The position numbers and the translations under genes are program-made. From Octopus vulgaris (lineage: Eukaryota): a DNA stretch of 64,000 nucleotides. The stretch spans positions 46,810,001 to 46,874,000 of the forward strand of contig OX597837.1 of assembly GCA_951406725.2 (NCBI GenBank), given 5' to 3'. Position 1 is the first letter of the stretch, and each line of letters begins with the position of its first letter. The notes beneath the pieces were generated by a model. That model saw only the letters and a program-made list of their open reading frames with translations, was not told where the DNA came from and made no database searches. Below are positions 5,446-57,571 of this stretch, in pieces.

Positions 5446-5837
5446 TCTATATATATAAAGCTGAAGTTGTCTGTGTATGGCAGGTTTGGTAGCCTTCAAC
5501 TAACACTATCTCCTCCGAGACCCTGCAGCGCAAGTTGACCAAAATTGAGAGTATGATAGAAGAAGACTTGCTCTTCCTTCCGTAGAAGAAAAAATTCAAA
5601 TCAGACCATGTTAACACCAAAAATTATTTACATCAAAAAGGTGCTTTTTTTTCTATGAAAATCCCTATTTTTTACGATTTTTTTCACTGCTGTGTTGCCA
5701 TTTTTCGGTGTATTTCAACCAGAAAAATGTTCACTTAAAGAGAATAACAAGCTACATAATGCAAAATTTTTACTTTTCAAAAGTTCCAATTCTAAAGGGT
5801 CGAAACAAACCCGAGCAACGCCGGGCGATACTGCTAG
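5446..5837 (+). mobile_element. Non-autonomous Helitron
   Basis: A|TCTATATATATAAAG 5' end, subterminal hairpin CCCGAGCAACGCCGGG, CTAG|T 3' end. Confidence 0.8.
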
Positions 5838-6535: not shown

Positions 6536-7215
6536 ATGGTAACCAGAAACAGACTTAGAAGTTTCCCAGCCTCAAAGACAACTAAAAATGGTGATACATC
6601 TTTAAAAGGACCGGAGCAATTGTTAGATTTGACAAGGAAACTGGAAATGATATATGAAAAAGCAAGACTTTCTGGTATTGACATTAATGCGGTTCCCTGT
6701 CTTGTTAGATCCCATCTGCAACTTGCTGAAGAGAGGAAGCTGACAATGGTTCCATGGCAACGGAAGAAAACACTACATCACATCATCATCATTGCGTTCA
6801 CCCTTTGTCTTCTTCTTTCACCGACATTTCAGGATTGGCTTCAGAACTCACCCTGTTTGCTTGAAAACAATGAAATCCTGATGGAAGTTTTGAGACCAGC
6901 TTCAAACTGTGAAGAACTGTGTCTTGGAATGGATTCGGTGCCAACAGAATTTAACATCAGCACAGAAAAATTCATGCAAAAATATGCATACACTGGACAT
7001 CCTGTCTTGATCAAAAATGCCACCACAAACTGGACGGCTCTGAAGATGTTCAATTTCAACTTCTTCCATAAACTTTTTAGTTCAAGACTGAGCCATTTGG
7101 AAGAATGCATGTTTTTCCCATACAACACTAACTTTACAAGTTTTGCTCAGTTCTTAGGAATGCCCCTGGCCAGGGCTCAGTTTAATCCTGGTCAGTTACC
7201 TTGGTATGTTGGATG
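6536..7215 (+). CDS. JmjC/cupin-like (putative 2OG-Fe(II) dioxygenase) membrane-anchored protein, coding exon 1 of 4
   Basis: 227-codon ORF (MVTRNRL...hydrophobic IIIIAFTLCLLLSPTF...KFMQKYAYTGHPVLIKNATTNWTA...PWYVGW). It ends at a TG|GTAAGT donor (phase 2) that matches the next exon. Confidence 0.9.
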
Positions 7216-37035: not shown

Positions 37036-38949
37036 CAGATGTGTGCCCCACCGACATTGTTACCTATTTTCCCCTTCATAACTTTTAGGAAAATGGATAT
37101 CTTTTAATGAAATTTTATACAGATACCTTTCAAACGTCATAGATTGCGATTATAAAGAAATTTGTGGGGAACATTTTTTCCGAGGGGCTGGGGAAGGAGT
37201 TTTGAAAAAATGGAATTTCTGATCAGAAAGACTAAATAAGTTGGAACTACTTACTCCGTTTTAACAGTGATTTTTTCACCCCCAATTTATAAAATTTCAC
37301 CACAACCTTCGAAATAATGGAGACATCGTTTTATAATAAAAAAAGTTTTGAAAATTTTTGCACCCCCTCCCCATTCCTCACCAACCCACTCCAACTTACA
37401 AATCATGGAAGGAGCCTTTTCGGTAAAATAAAGAAAAATTGTAAATATTTTCAGAGGAAAAGGTGTACGATTCAAGGGAGATTTGGCTGTTGTTTCTAGC
37501 CTATCCCAAACCACCCTGTTTTCACTCTGACATGTATTGATGTTCCTTTAATATTTTCTCCCATTAAACACATTCTTATGGAACGATGATGCGGAAGTAA
37601 CACACGCGGGGCCCATTGGTCGGATATAAGCAACAAAAACAAAACAAAAATTGTAATATAAATTTTTGTCCCTACCTCAATCAAGCGAGGCCATGTGTCT
37701 GTGTGTAAGAAAAGAACATTTTCTAACAGAAAAGTATGCGGGTAGACTTCCTTTTGTACCCCCCAAAAAACCACCAACAATCGGGGGCAGGGAGTGAGGT
37801 TGCCAAAAAATCATAATTTTTCCCAATTTTTTTTTATAGCATATAGAAGTATAAAAGTATTTATGGGGAGGAAAAAACCTGCGAGAATGATAAAGTAACG
37901 GGGAGGGTGGTCTTGGGATGTGCTAGAAACAACAGTCCCTTAAATCACTCACTTTTCCCTCTGAAAATATCAGCAATTTTTAAAAATATTTTTCTTACCC
38001 TCTCTTGGTTTTGAAGTGCAAAAAAATATTGGCCAAAATTGGCCCTGAGTGGGATGATGAGGGAGTAGGGTTGTAGACACACAAATAAGAAAGAAGAAAG
38101 CAAAGGACCACTGATGAGGTCACAGAAGTGTGACGAAAGAACTCTGGCCGAAATAAGATTAATGTAAAAAATACAATAAAGCTGAAGCAAATTAACACCA
38201 AATATATAGTGCATGTGTTTTTATTGGTTAAACTCACAACATGACCATCCCTAAATACAACAATATCTGTTTCAACACATGATTTCATATCAAGAGTTTT
38301 GCAAAACAAATATATAAACATAACTTTTTAAAACCTTTTTTCATAAAAAGATGCCCCCCCCACCACCCATCATTTCAAAGTCTGTGGTTAAAAAAAAATT
38401 GGGAAACCCCTCCATCAAAACAGAGTAGTTCCAGCTTGTTTAGTTTTCCTGATCCGAAACTCCTCTCCTCATCCCTTCGGAAAAAATTTTCCCCATAAAT
38501 TTCTTTATAATCGTAATCTATGCGTTTGAAAGGTATTTGTATAAAATTTTATCAAAAGATATCCATTTTGCTGAAAATTATGAGGGAAAAAAGTCGGATC
38601 ATATGAATTTTCCAAAACTCCTCTCTCCGCCATTTCGGAAAAATTCTTTCCCATAAATCCTTATATACTCTTAATCCACCCTCTGGAAGCCATCTGCTCA
38701 CAATACCAGAAGGCGCTCACTCTCCTACCCTGATGTAATCTCCAGGGATACAGGCATCCAGCAACAGGACCTCCGTAATGCTATGATGGACCGTGAAGTC
38801 TGGTGTAACATAGTAAATTCCATTGTCTCAACCACGGTCAAACAATGATGATGAGGAAGCTGTTTTTGTTGAAAATTTCGTTAAAAAGTATCCATTCTTC
38901 TAGAAGTTATGAGGCAACAAAGCCAGTGGGGGGGGGGGGTACACATCTG
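37036..38949. mobile_element. ~1.9-kb non-autonomous DNA transposon with long inverted arms and TA flanks
   Basis: TA|CAGATGTGT...ACACATCTG|TA. 37070-37265 is an inverted match to 38415-38590. A LINE 3' end is nested at 38678-38853. Confidence 0.7.
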
Positions 38950-51914: not shown

Positions 51915-52345
51915 TCATCATCATCATCATCATCGTTTAACGTCCGTTTTTCATGCTAGCATGGGTTGAACGGTTCGACCGGGGATCTGGGAAGCCAGGT
52001 GGCTGCACCAGGCCCAGTCTTATCTGGCAATGTTTCTACAGCTGGATGCTTTTCCTAACGCCAACCACTCCGTGAGTGTAGTGGGTGCTTTTTACGTGCC
52101 AGGGGAGGCTGGCAATGTCCATGATCGGTTGGTGTTTTTTACGTGCGATCGGCACAGAAGCCAGTCAAGGTGGTGCTGGCATCGGCCACGTACGGATGGT
52201 GCTTTTTAGGTGCCAGGGTAAGTGGACAACTGCTACAATCGGTTGGTGCTTTTTATGTGCCACCGACATGGAAGCCAGTCAAGGCAGTGCTGGTATTGGC
52301 TACGTACAGATGGTGCTTTTTACATGCCAATGGCACAGGTGTACA
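51915..52345 (-). mobile_element. SINE with RTE-type (TGA)n tail and internal ~50-60-bp tandem units (copies ~10950, 11700, 22705, 26545, 41520, 47410)
   Basis: (CAT)n-CGTTTAACGTCCGTTTT...CTACAGCTGGATGC...GGTGCTTTTTACGTGCCA recurs across the window. Confidence 0.7.
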
Positions 52346-54170: not shown

Positions 54171-54250
54171 CACAGGTAGTATAAAACAAACAGTGATTAA
54201 CATGTCTAAGCATGCTGTTGATAGTGTGCTGGAACAAAAACAATTGCAGT

Positions 54251-54512
54251 GTTGAAGGTGTTTATAAGCCAATTGAAAACACACAAAAACCGTTCGATTC
54301 ACTTCAACATTTAAGTTTAATTTGTCAAAATATTTTCGTCGCTTTGAGACCGCGACCTGTTCACTGACAAAACTTTGTGCTGCACGAAGTTTTGTCAGTG
54401 AACAGGTCGCGGTCTCAAAGCGACGAAAATATTTTGACAAATTAAACTTAAATGTTGAAGTGAATCTAATGGTCTTTGTGTGTTTCTTAAATGGCTTGTA
54501 AACACCTTCCAC

Positions 54513-54513
<1 letters not shown>
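54251..54513. repeat. ~260-bp palindrome carrying mirrored hammerhead-like motifs
   Basis: Inner arms are almost perfectly complementary around ~54381. Confidence 0.92.
54391..54441 (+). ncRNA. Hammerhead-like motif with G3-C8 swapped core (identical mirror copy at 54321-54371 on -)
   Basis: TTTGTCA-GTGAACA-G-GTCGC(GGTCTCAAA)GCGAC-GAAA-ATAT-TT-TGACAAA. 7-bp stem I, 5-bp stem II, palindromic stem III. Confidence 0.62.
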
Positions 54514-54567
<54 letters not shown>

Positions 54568-54727
54568 AGGGTAGAAATTGATATTAATCAATTAAAACCA
54601 GTAGATTAGCATATTTAAAAAATCCAAAGATTAAAAATGATAATACATACAAAATTAAGAGGAATGTCTATCAAAAGTGGTCATATTAGGAGTCCACTTT
54701 GGTGGTCATTCCTCTTAATTTTGTATG

Positions 54728-54766
<39 letters not shown>

Positions 54767-54832: not shown

Positions 54833-55039
<207 letters not shown>

Positions 55040-55093: not shown

Positions 55094-55808
55094 ATCTAGC
55101 TTCACTTATGAGGTGGTTATCTCCCCTGTCAGTATATGAAAATGTGCTTTTTTCCAGTTCTAAGGGTTTTAACTCTTATTTATAGCAATGTATGTGCTGC
55201 TCAGCACCCTCAGTCACAATTAGTGTTGATTGAACATTTCCATTTTGGTTTTATATATATATATATATATATAAGGACAGCACAGCAATACTCAACAACT
55301 CATGATGTTGTGCATTGCTGTCTGGGAGATATCTTATGGTAGTAGAATAGTATTTTAACTGCTATTTCTAAATTTTGGTATCTGGTGAAGCAAATTTTGC
55401 TGAACCCTAATTATAATTATGCTCATAATTATAGAATTTTTGTATAAGTTTACCAATAATGGTTCTTTTAACATACCAAACTACTTGGTAAAATTATTAA
55501 TTATTAATTGATTAATTAATTTTACCCTTTATTATATATATATATATATTTGTGTATTAAGTCTAAAATTGGTTTCATGTCAACGAATACCTTAAACAGT
55601 TATCAAGTTTATCATATGGAACATCAGCATTCATCTCCATTTTGTTTTTACCCAAAATGGAGATGAACACCAATGTTCCCTGTGATCGGTTTGATAATTG
55701 TAAAGATATCCGTTAGCATGGAACCAATGGTAGCCTTCATACACAGATAAAGAATCTTTATCTACCAATGCAGTATTGAGCACTCATTCTCATTGTTCGA
55801 TATATATA

Positions 55809-55844
<36 letters not shown>

Positions 55845-57571
55845 CATCATCTGCAGCCAGTAGTCGTAACTATGATTATTCGTGGCTTGAGATTCATAGA
55901 CTGTCCAGCTTTCAGTGCCATACAGCAAGGAAGAAAGCACCACAGCTTAGTATACTTTATATGTATATATATACTAATAAGATGAGAAAAGAGAGAGGTG
56001 ATTAATAAATTATTTATTAATTAAAAATTTTACAAGCATCTCTTACAGCTGTTTCAATTCCAAACCTTCAGAAAATTAATTTAATTAATTTTCTAAAGGT
56101 CTGGAATTGAAACAGCAGTAAGGGATGTTTGTCAATTTTTTAATTAATAACTAATAATTTATTAATTGCCTCTTTATTTTCTCAATTATTATTATAAGAA
56201 ATAAATATATATAAACCACCGTTTCTATAGTTACCTTGCAGTTGAGTATTAAATGTGATGTTCAATATTCTTTGTATAGGTAACTAACCAGTACTTTCAT
56301 ACGATCTTGCTATCCCTGAATGAGGTTTATAGCCTTTAATTGTGCTTCTGTATACATATATATATACATTATTTACATAGGACAGATATGTGTCCTCATT
56401 TTGTTTGTTGTTACCACAATGTTTTGGCTGATATACACTCCAGCCTTCAACAGCTGTCCTGGTGGCATTTTGAATCCAACCCTGGGATTCTTAAATGGCT
56501 AACATGACTTTTGAAGTCAAAGCCCTTTTTAAAAATTATTCAGATGTCCTCATTTCTTTACAAGAGGCAATAAATGAGTTTGGCACCAACATTGCTTCCA
56601 GGGCTAATGGTATTCTTTCATGTCTCTCTATGGTCCAATACTAACATGCTCCTTCAAGAATTTTGAATCCAACCCTGGGTTCTCATTCCTAAGGTATTTT
56701 TTTGCTGGTATCATCATCATTATTATTATTATTATTTATTCAAGGCACTCTTAACCACTACGCTGTATGCCCGTGGGCAATTATAGAGTGACTTTTAGAG
56801 CTTATAAACCTAGTATTTTCTCTTTTCTTAATACTGGTTCCCATATTCTACTCCCGTATTCTACCCTGGGTCTGCTAAGGGGGTCATTGTGTCCTGGCAT
56901 ATGTGTTCCCCTCTTTTACTTATTTATTTACATTGTTTTGAATTAATCATGCATTGTCTTTTAGCTTTGAGATTCTAACGATGTAATTGTATAATTTTAC
57001 AATAACATTAAAGATTATGTGGGAAAGGCTGGACCTGCTTCGTTTCAATGGAAAACAGGTAGAATATTTGAGCCAGGTATCAAGTATTATACTTATTTAT
57101 TCTCAACATTTTGAATTCATTGTGTATTATCTTGTAGCTTCAAGAGTTCAAATCATGCGATTATTTACTTTTAGAATGACATTGTGAGTGGTCAAGATTT
57201 TGCTGGTTTGAACTTAAAACAGGTAAAATATTTGAGCCAGGTGTGGCCAATTTAAATGCTGAAGGGTTAAATCCCATTTTACTGCCTTCAAAAAGGATAT
57301 AGATAATATAAGAAAAAAAGGTAGGATGGGCATGGATGGCTGGATCATAGGTCTACTTGACAAAGGCTGATTTCTTCTTAAATAACACAGCTACAGTCAA
57401 CATTACTGCTGTCACCAACTCCACCATGACCATCACCCCACTACACACACATACCCACTGTAATTATGTTCATAAGCAATAAACTTCAGTGTTTGCAGTG
57501 ATTAAAAAAAAAACCCAAATTCTGTCCCCTGTCCCCTTATAAATGTAAATTTTTATTGCTGTTGTTTGCAG

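What the first reader, a model, noticed from the sequence alone, without database searches (positions are those of the whole stretch)
54251..54513. Candidate natural G3-C8 core-swapped hammerhead, present identically on both strands of a fold-back element
Seen: TTTGTCA-GTGAACA-G-GTCGC/GCGAC-GAAA-ATAT-TT-TGACAAA (54391-54441) with an exact mirror on - (54321-54371). All three stems fit hammerhead geometry. The core reads GUGAACA instead of CUGANGA, one extra G follows A9, and the cleavage triplet would be UUU. Known: C3-G8 is a tertiary Watson-Crick pair, compensatory swaps partly rescue activity, and an extra nucleotide after A9 occurs in some viroid hammerheads. Inference: a double compensatory change suggests selection for activity, and standard CUGANGA searches would miss it.
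Basis: partly seen in the sequence, partly recalled or inferred. Interest (0 to 1): 0.85.

Follow-up and report, generated by a model that had tools for sequence, protein, structure and literature searches.

The report
Octopus retroelement hammerhead, swapped G3-C8 core
The fold-back is a head-to-head insertion of two ends of a Penelope-like jumping gene; its hammerhead-shaped RNA motif has the core pair C3-G8 swapped to G3-C8 in about 5,000 copies while sister families keep the usual pair, so it is likely a natural form of a self-cutting RNA so far found only as a lab mutant, though cutting is untested.

Summary
The motif, its coordinates and its exact mirror are real. It is the minimal type I hammerhead of the terminal repeat (pLTR) of a Neptune-type Penelope-like element (PLE), in a genome that is most likely Octopus vulgaris. 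G3 and C8 are the family norm: 5,498 copies, 93 of the first 100 G3+C8. An older related family also has G3-C8. Sister PLE families, one found by protein homology alone, have the same scaffold with canonical C3-G8, so the double swap is real and compensatory.

The extra G, the UUU triplet and the copy on both strands are ordinary PLE features. In the full fold-back the hammerhead stems do not form, so this copy is probably inert.

Activity is unproven. No copy begins at the predicted cut site (0 of 30), and about 195 dispersed copies carry a mismatched G3.G8 core. Natural U3-A8 cores are in print; nine paper searches found G3-C8 only as a laboratory double mutant with partial activity. Three key papers could not be read.

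Verdict: new variant of a known kind, interest 0.5.

The parts
54220..54384 (-). Left arm: inverted copy of the PLE end (pLTR from about 20 nt before G3, plus the optional tail present on this arm only)
   Evidence: blastn to the family end from L018: 94.6% over 166 nt; one-sided tail as described in PMC8557442
54378..54512 (+). Right arm: direct copy of the PLE end, stopping at the shorter of the family's two 3' ends; the arms overlap in TGCTGCA at the fold-back centre
   Evidence: 95.6% over 135 nt; family 3' ends cluster near +121..+128 from G3 and from +184 on
54391..54441 (+). Minimal type I hammerhead motif: stem I 54391-54397 with 54435-54441, stem II 54406-54410 with 54420-54424, loop II 54411-54419
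54398..54405 (+). Core G3 U4 G5 A6 A7 C8 A9 and the extra G before G10.1
   Evidence: family state; canonical counterparts
54425..54434 (+). G12 A13 A14, palindrome AAUAUU (A15.1 to U16.1; predicted dimer stem III), U17; predicted cut after 54434
   Evidence: register matches the PLE consensus in PMC4209133 Fig. S3
54321..54371 (-). Identical mirror hammerhead motif (U17 at 54328)
54491..54512 (+). Likely start codon and first codons of the PLE ORF (inferred); in L099 the element continues into the ORF
54516..54562 (.). (TA)n at the right end, the target type reported for Neptune-type PLEs
   Evidence: PMC8557442
38105..38149 (+). Copy of sister family B with the canonical core CUGAUGA in the same scaffold (internal control)

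Best explanation
This is an inverted insertion of two ends of a Neptune-type Penelope-like retroelement, and its pLTR carries a minimal hammerhead whose core pair reads G3-C8 where sister families read C3-G8; it likely remains a slow self-cutter in the parent element's RNA, while this copy is predicted to be inert. Shown: the element identity, the G3-C8 norm in two related families, canonical sister families, and masking of both hammerheads in the computed fold-back. Inferred: positions 3 and 8 still pair, so G12 (base) and the 2'-OH of residue 8 (acid) can be placed as in other hammerheads. Stem III would be supplied by two copies pairing through AAUAUU, or by help from the element's protein, and the RNA would be cut after U17, in the leader ahead of the ORF start. 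Inferred for the locus: reverse transcription began at one of two sites inside the ORF start, ran to the 5' end of an uncut transcript and folded back at a short TGCA-type overlap. Cutting is probably not required for copying.
For: Parent element: copies extend upstream through a microsatellite-rich 3' UTR into an ORF end with RT motifs, a CxxxCxxC linker and a GIY-YIG domain (Pfam PF01541 at 23.1 bits, cut-off 22.6). In L097 the ORF stops at 5786 and the core starts at 6830. Family state: 5,498 matches with positions 3, 7 and 8 free; 93 of the first 100 are G3+C8 by hand count. Only 24 matches have neither G3 nor C8, and 2 of them are C3-G8. No difference of 3% or more at G3 or C8 in contigs of 4 runs with 4 organism labels. 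Non-circular control: family B was found through RT homology (P0002, 55% identity) and has the same scaffold at the same place with C3-G8. Between the window's own A and B copies only positions 3, 7 and 8 differ in the core, while the next 72 nt align no better than shuffles (644 of 1000 score as high). 1,149 matches to the shorter-loop scaffold, 71 of the first 100 C3-G8 by hand count. In 29 hand-picked rows the 3-8 pair is GC 12, CG 11, UG 5, unpaired 1, and stem II has a G-C/A-U exchange. An older family (77% identical downstream) keeps G3-C8 with another loop II, another N7, a purine-pyrimidine pair in place of one U-A pair of stem I, and the palindrome AAUU in place of AAUAUU. With positions 3 and 8 masked, the 22 rows of this lineage form one side of a branch (92/91). 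C3G/G8C partly rescues a PLE hammerhead in vitro (PMC11167929). U17 in 132 of 133 family A arms avoids a G3-C17 trap.
Against: No cleavage data exist. 0 of 30 copies chosen by a downstream anchor begin at the predicted cut (+34..+40 from G3); 14 begin at -29..-20 (2 of 192 arms at +37 in the larger, biased set). 195 copies have G3.G8 against 45 with G3.A8, so a predicted-dead core was copied many times; 6 of 12 readable ORF-linked 3' pLTRs are G3.G8. G3 is computed to pair with U17 at 0.67 in the monomer, which competes with the active fold. The double-hammerhead dimer (-25.4) is not the computed dimer minimum (-30.6). PLE minimal hammerheads are poor in vitro even with the canonical core (PMC4209133), and the Anolis one needs protein and is dispensable for insertion in vitro. 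Core conservation in the older family is partly imposed by my search patterns (less so). The branch support of 92/91 is below the tool's bar, and the rows were hand-picked relatives.
Confidence: 0.6

Rival explanations
1. The fold is kept for a non-catalytic job, such as binding the element's protein or shaping the 5' leader; the G3-C8 form cuts negligibly in the cell.
For: All short copies that span the motif came from uncut RNA and none starts at the cut site. G3.G8 copies are mobile. The youngest family B copies carry A9C. Hammerhead mutants do not impair PLE insertion in vitro.
Against: The 3-8 pair is a feature of the active conformation, and it is what was preserved by a double change. 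G12 and the palindrome are also kept.
Confidence: 0.25
2. The hammerhead is dispensable, and the swap arose by two neutral changes in a master element, then spread by descent.
For: Thousands of copies descend from few masters, so counts are not independent. Mismatched intermediates exist and spread. Only two G3-C8 families are well documented, and keeping both bases between them has probability about 0.6 at the flanking rate.
Against: Two transversions hit exactly the two paired bases and restored complementarity, while the other core bases stayed fixed against family B, whose flanks are unalignable. Compensated stem and palindrome changes occurred inside the G3-C8 lineage.
Confidence: 0.12
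3. The feature is a MITE-like fold-back DNA element or a microRNA-type hairpin, and the hammerhead look is chance.
For: A 130-bp near-perfect hairpin next to (TA)n. Rfam gives only sub-threshold miRNA hits and no hammerhead.
Against: Arms are variably truncated copies of one end, many copies have a single arm, and long copies lead into an RT and GIY-YIG ORF. Rfam also misses the canonical sister hammerheads, so its blank says nothing.
Confidence: 0.03

Closest known systems
Minimal type I hammerheads of metazoan Penelope-like elements (Cervera and de la Pena 2014, PMC4209133)
   Same: Place in the pLTR; extra nucleotide between 9 and 10.1; G10.1-C11.1; palindromic stem III; U17 common; opposite-strand pairs close together.
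   Different: Core pair is G3-C8. The 56 representatives in Fig. S3 read CUGA or UUGA, none GUGA; the only core covariation named is U3-A8.
Natural U3-A8 hammerhead cores (Perreault et al. 2011, PMC3088659; Schistosoma Cercyon PLEs, PMC4209133)
   Same: Compensatory change of the tertiary 3-8 pair in nature.
   Different: U3-A8 needs two transitions and keeps a purine at 8; here two transversions put a pyrimidine at the general-acid position.
Engineered C3G/G8C double mutants (Anolis Poseidon PLE hammerhead, PMC11167929; review PMC8495972; G3-C8 remark in PMC3884650)
   Same: Identical core state; singles dead, double partly active.
   Different: Those are laboratory controls; this is a natural lineage of thousands of copies.
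Neptune/Nematis-type EN+ PLEs (Craig et al. 2021, PMC8557442)
   Same: RT, CX2-5CxxC linker, C-terminal GIY-YIG, 5' truncation, inverted adjacent copy, one-sided tail, (TA)n neighbours.
   Different: Neptune versus Nematis was not resolved here (no reference sequences); the copies seen have broken ORFs.

Membership tests
PLE minimal hammerhead (type I) | Lies in the pLTR of a PLE | tested here: met
   ORF-linked copies L061, L097, L099, L100
PLE minimal hammerhead (type I) | Stems I and II around the core, G10.1-C11.1, extra base after A9 | tested here: met
PLE minimal hammerhead (type I) | Palindromic 15.2-16.2 region and NUH triplet | tested here: met
   AAUAUU then U17; AAUU in the older family
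Hammerhead ribozyme, consensus core | Literal C3 and G8 (CUGANGA) | tested here: not met
   G3 and C8 in 93 of the first 100 copies; hence filed as a variant, not as a consensus member
Hammerhead ribozyme, consensus core | Watson-Crick complementarity of 3 and 8; U4 G5 A6 A9 G12 A13 A14 A15.1 U16.1 present | tested here: met
Hammerhead ribozyme, consensus core | Self-cleavage after N17 | not testable with these tools
   No run on record as RNA and only contigs were listed; genomic 5' ends show no peak at the site
Rfam hammerhead families | Match to a covariance model | tested here: inconclusive
   No match, but canonical sister copies L191 and L198 give none either
EN+ Penelope-like element, Neptune/Nematis type | RT followed by a CX2-5CxxC linker and C-terminal GIY-YIG | tested here: met
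   RT supported by motifs and by 36 homologues; Pfam RVT_1 only below its cut-off for P0002 and absent for the family's own pieces
EN+ Penelope-like element, Neptune/Nematis type | 5' truncation, inverted adjacent copy, optional tail, microsatellite neighbours | tested here: met
Neptune clade proper | RT phylogeny with named Neptune and Nematis references | not tested
   No named reference sequences were at hand
Non-LTR retrozyme | Tandem direct repeats with a hammerhead in each unit | tested here: not met
   This locus is an inverted pair; one family locus, L005, is a short tandem array
MITE | Fixed terminal inverted repeats at both ends of every copy | tested here: not met
   Single-arm and variably truncated copies

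The most novel reading that the evidence does not exclude
Octopus carries a natural, working G3-C8 hammerhead lineage, and its cutting acts as a gate on retrotransposition: transcripts whose 3' hammerhead cuts lose the priming site for long copies, which is why dead G3.G8 cores are over-represented on ORF-bearing copies (6 of 12 against 3.5% overall). One genome then holds a natural allelic series (C3-G8, U3.G8, G3-C8, G3.G8, A9C) that tests what PLE hammerheads are for.
Probability: 0.25. Interest if true: 0.72.

Novelty: new variant of a known kind. Interest (0 to 1): 0.5.

Why it matters
The C3-G8 pair is a key result of the full-length hammerhead structure, and the G3-C8 swap is the standard laboratory rescue control. 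A natural lineage that fixed it would show that evolution accepts a pyrimidine at the general-acid position. It also shows that descriptor searches on CUGANGA or UUGANAA miss whole families, here about 5,000 copies in one genome. The function of PLE hammerheads is an open question; sister families that differ at exactly this pair, plus a mobile mismatched subset, make it directly testable. The locus itself is one ordinary, probably inert, insertion.

Tried and rejected
Rfam scans found no hammerhead here or in canonical sister copies: uninformative. Sequencing runs: no RNA holder listed; only contigs could be laid, so RNA ends, splicing and expression were not testable. My first generic hammerhead scans printed nothing, at least because A9 was required; the family B motif was then read by eye. 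A structure-database search of the EN piece gave nothing. The host exon found no Pfam or Atlas hit; its SH2D4 likeness is recalled only. A larger sample for the 5'-end test was not available, so it rests on 30 unbiased loci. The tree of 12 ORF ends is star-like and cannot say whether G3.G8 is one subfamily; all six such loci are on contig C16, so they may not be independent. The family labels by downstream motif mis-sort some rows (38 of 217 unassigned), so only the A, B and D counts were used. I first read TTTCTCAG|ATG as a splice acceptor; a transcription start fits the extra-G signal better, and neither is shown. Papers not held: Lunse et al. 2017 (PMC5785218, about 150,000 PLE-linked hammerheads by my recall), Hammann et al. 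2012 (PMC3334697), Martick and Scott 2006 (PMC4447102). They or their supplements could already list natural G3-C8 cores.

Full report
OBSERVATION. The 51-nt motif is at 54391-54441 and its exact mirror at 54321-54371. It sits in an inverted repeat centred on 54381 (104 nt per arm, 96%) that folds as one hairpin at -197.6 kcal/mol. Against the family end the left arm spans 54220-54384 and the right arm 54378-54512, followed by (TA)n. In one arm stems I and II form well; in the whole fold-back their pair probabilities are 0. Stem III is a single pair as a monomer and is better read as the palindrome AAUAUU.

WHAT IT IS. The arm is a dispersed repeat: 1,935 first-look candidates, 553 exact copies of a core-spanning 41-mer and 6,375 of a downstream 25-mer. 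Longer copies run upstream through a microsatellite-rich 3' UTR into an ORF end. Thirty loci found with that ORF end show RT motifs, a CxxxCxxC linker and a GIY-YIG domain in broken frames (Pfam GIY-YIG just above cut-off). This is the layout of Neptune/Nematis-type PLEs (PMC8557442, passages). The same paper describes the inverted adjacent copy and the one-sided tail seen here; 19 of 30 sampled arms (17 of 28 loci) have an inverted partner once three (TA)n-only hits are dropped. In L099 the pLTR continues into the ORF, whose likely start is about 94 nt after G3. A homologue named Octopus vulgaris by NCBI (P0002) matches the genome at 100%, which gives the likely species.

IS G3-C8 THE FAMILY STATE? 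Yes. With positions 3, 7 and 8 free there are 5,498 matches; of the first 100 listed, 93 are G3+C8, 3 T3, 1 C3, 1 G8 and 2 T8 (hand count). Only 24 matches have neither G3 nor C8, and 2 are C3-G8. Contigs of four runs under four organism labels show no difference of 3% or more at either base (run types are not on record).

IS THE SWAP COMPENSATORY? The best test is family B, found by RT homology (55%) and not by motif. Its pLTR has the same scaffold and register with C3-G8 and an A-U pair where family A has G-C in stem II. The window holds a B copy at 38111: only positions 3, 7 and 8 differ in the core, while the following 72 nt are no more alike than shuffles (644 of 1000). A shorter-loop pattern gives 1,149 matches, 71 of the first 100 C3-G8 (hand count). 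Further families have CUGAAGA or mostly UUGAUGA. An older relative of A reads GUGACCA; it was first seen in a search that left 3 and 8 free and then collected with a pattern that fixed C8 (127 matches including some A copies). It is 77% identical to A downstream and differs in loop II, N7, one stem I pair and palindrome length. In 29 hand-picked rows the 3-8 pair is GC 12, CG 11, UG 5, other 1; 0 of 500 shuffles reach the covariation score, but the rows are related, so this is not a probability. With 3 and 8 masked, the 22 rows of the G3-C8 lineage form one side of a branch against 25 others (92/91, below the tool's bar). C3-G8 is taken as ancestral because it is the published PLE consensus, not from a rooted test.

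HOW IT LIKELY WORKS. G12 acts as base and the 2'-OH of residue 8 as acid (PMC11300833, passages), so the base at 8 can change if it still pairs with 3. G8C alone lowers the rate about 100,000-fold and C3G partly restores it (PMC8495972, passages); the same holds in a PLE hammerhead, which also needs the element's protein and is not needed for insertion in vitro (PMC11167929, passages and section 3 part 2). I infer a slow ribozyme that works as a dimer through AAUAUU or with protein help and cuts after U17 in the leader. The double-hammerhead dimer computes at -25.4 kcal/mol, above the dimer minimum of -30.6. U17 is found in 132 of 133 family A arms, while B and D are mostly C17. A G3-C17 pair would trap the fold (0.98), but G3.U17 still computes at 0.67.

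RESULTS AGAINST A NEEDED ACTIVITY. Of 30 copies chosen by a downstream anchor, 0 begin at the cut site and 14 begin 20-29 nt before G3. Of 33 short copies that begin at AGATGCAG, 16 have a G just before it where the element has C (enriched even without fold-back cases). This suggests full-length cDNAs of a capped, uncut transcript (inference). G3.G8 occurs in 195 copies against 45 for G3.A8, on several loop backgrounds, and in 6 of the 12 readable 3' pLTRs among 30 ORF-end loci, all six on contig C16. This fits a dispensable ribozyme. It also fits a gate in which dead cores favour long copies, but the loci may not be independent.

COMPARISON WITH PRINT. PMC4209133 (main text parts 1-2 of 4; supplement parts 1-2 of 3) describes the extra base, the palindromic stem III, frequent U17 and a U3-A8 variant; none of its 56 representatives has GUGA. 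PMC3088659 (section 8) reports natural U3-A8 only. PMC3884650 (passages) mentions a G3-C8 variant only in its laboratory work. Also seen: PMC6765202, PMC6155905 and PMC11014351 (passages), PMC2920678 (part 1 of 2) and bioRxiv 10.64898/2026.07.22.740005 (part 1 of 5). Nine searches found no natural G3-C8 core. Three key papers were not held and could change this. Two unchecked notes of this scan describe G3-C8 motifs behind PLE RT genes in other genomes, so the swap may recur.

VERDICT. The feature is real and is a new variant of a known kind. The fold-back, extra G and UUU are ordinary for PLEs, and this copy is probably inert. The lineage-wide G3-C8 swap beside canonical sister families is the finding. 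Activity is untested (about 0.6). Interest 0.5.

Noticed in passing
window 54867-54973 (+): Exon with AG/GT borders and a start codon at 54875, about 350 nt after the element; the 33 residues resemble the N-terminus of SH2D4A/B (recalled; no Pfam or Atlas hit). If the element lies in the upstream intron, the pre-mRNA would hold a 130-bp duplex, a likely RNA-editing substrate.
   Followed up: partly
window 38105-38149 (+): Canonical CUGAUGA hammerhead of sister family B, with its pLTR flank.
   Followed up: yes
L128, L149, L150 (family B): Very young PLE family with open frames up to 1,312 residues and near-identical copies; its youngest copies carry C at position 9 of the core and U17, older ones A9 and C17.
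   Followed up: partly
L160, L161, L165, L197, L217, L219, L221, L235: An older family with mostly U3.G8 (wobble) cores in the same scaffold; 7 of 10 rows in the tree.
   Followed up: partly
G000 contig C16: ORF-bearing family A copies and G3.G8 cores cluster on this contig (19 of the 30 ORF-end loci fetched).
   Followed up: partly
family A 5' boundary, 20-24 nt before G3 (window centre 54378-54384): Short copies start here, often with an extra G; the upstream sequence looks like both a branch point with acceptor and an initiator.
   Followed up: partly
L005 464-2150: Array of about nine family A ends, mostly head to tail and separated by (TA)n, like a nascent retrozyme.
   Followed up: no
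window 56009-56155, 55596-55701, 54640-54733: Three more inverted repeats close by (73, 49 and 36 nt arms), not examined.
   Followed up: no
window 52071-52329: Two 114-nt tandem units with 47/67-nt subperiod.
   Followed up: no
L094, L095, L096, L101, L102: Near-identical blocks of about 9 kb on C7, C27 and C31 that contain a family A copy with a deleted core; likely a segmental duplication or a larger mobile unit.
   Followed up: no
L097 87-809 (-): A 240-residue frame that looks like the RT start of a different PLE family (recalled likeness; no Pfam hit).
   Followed up: no
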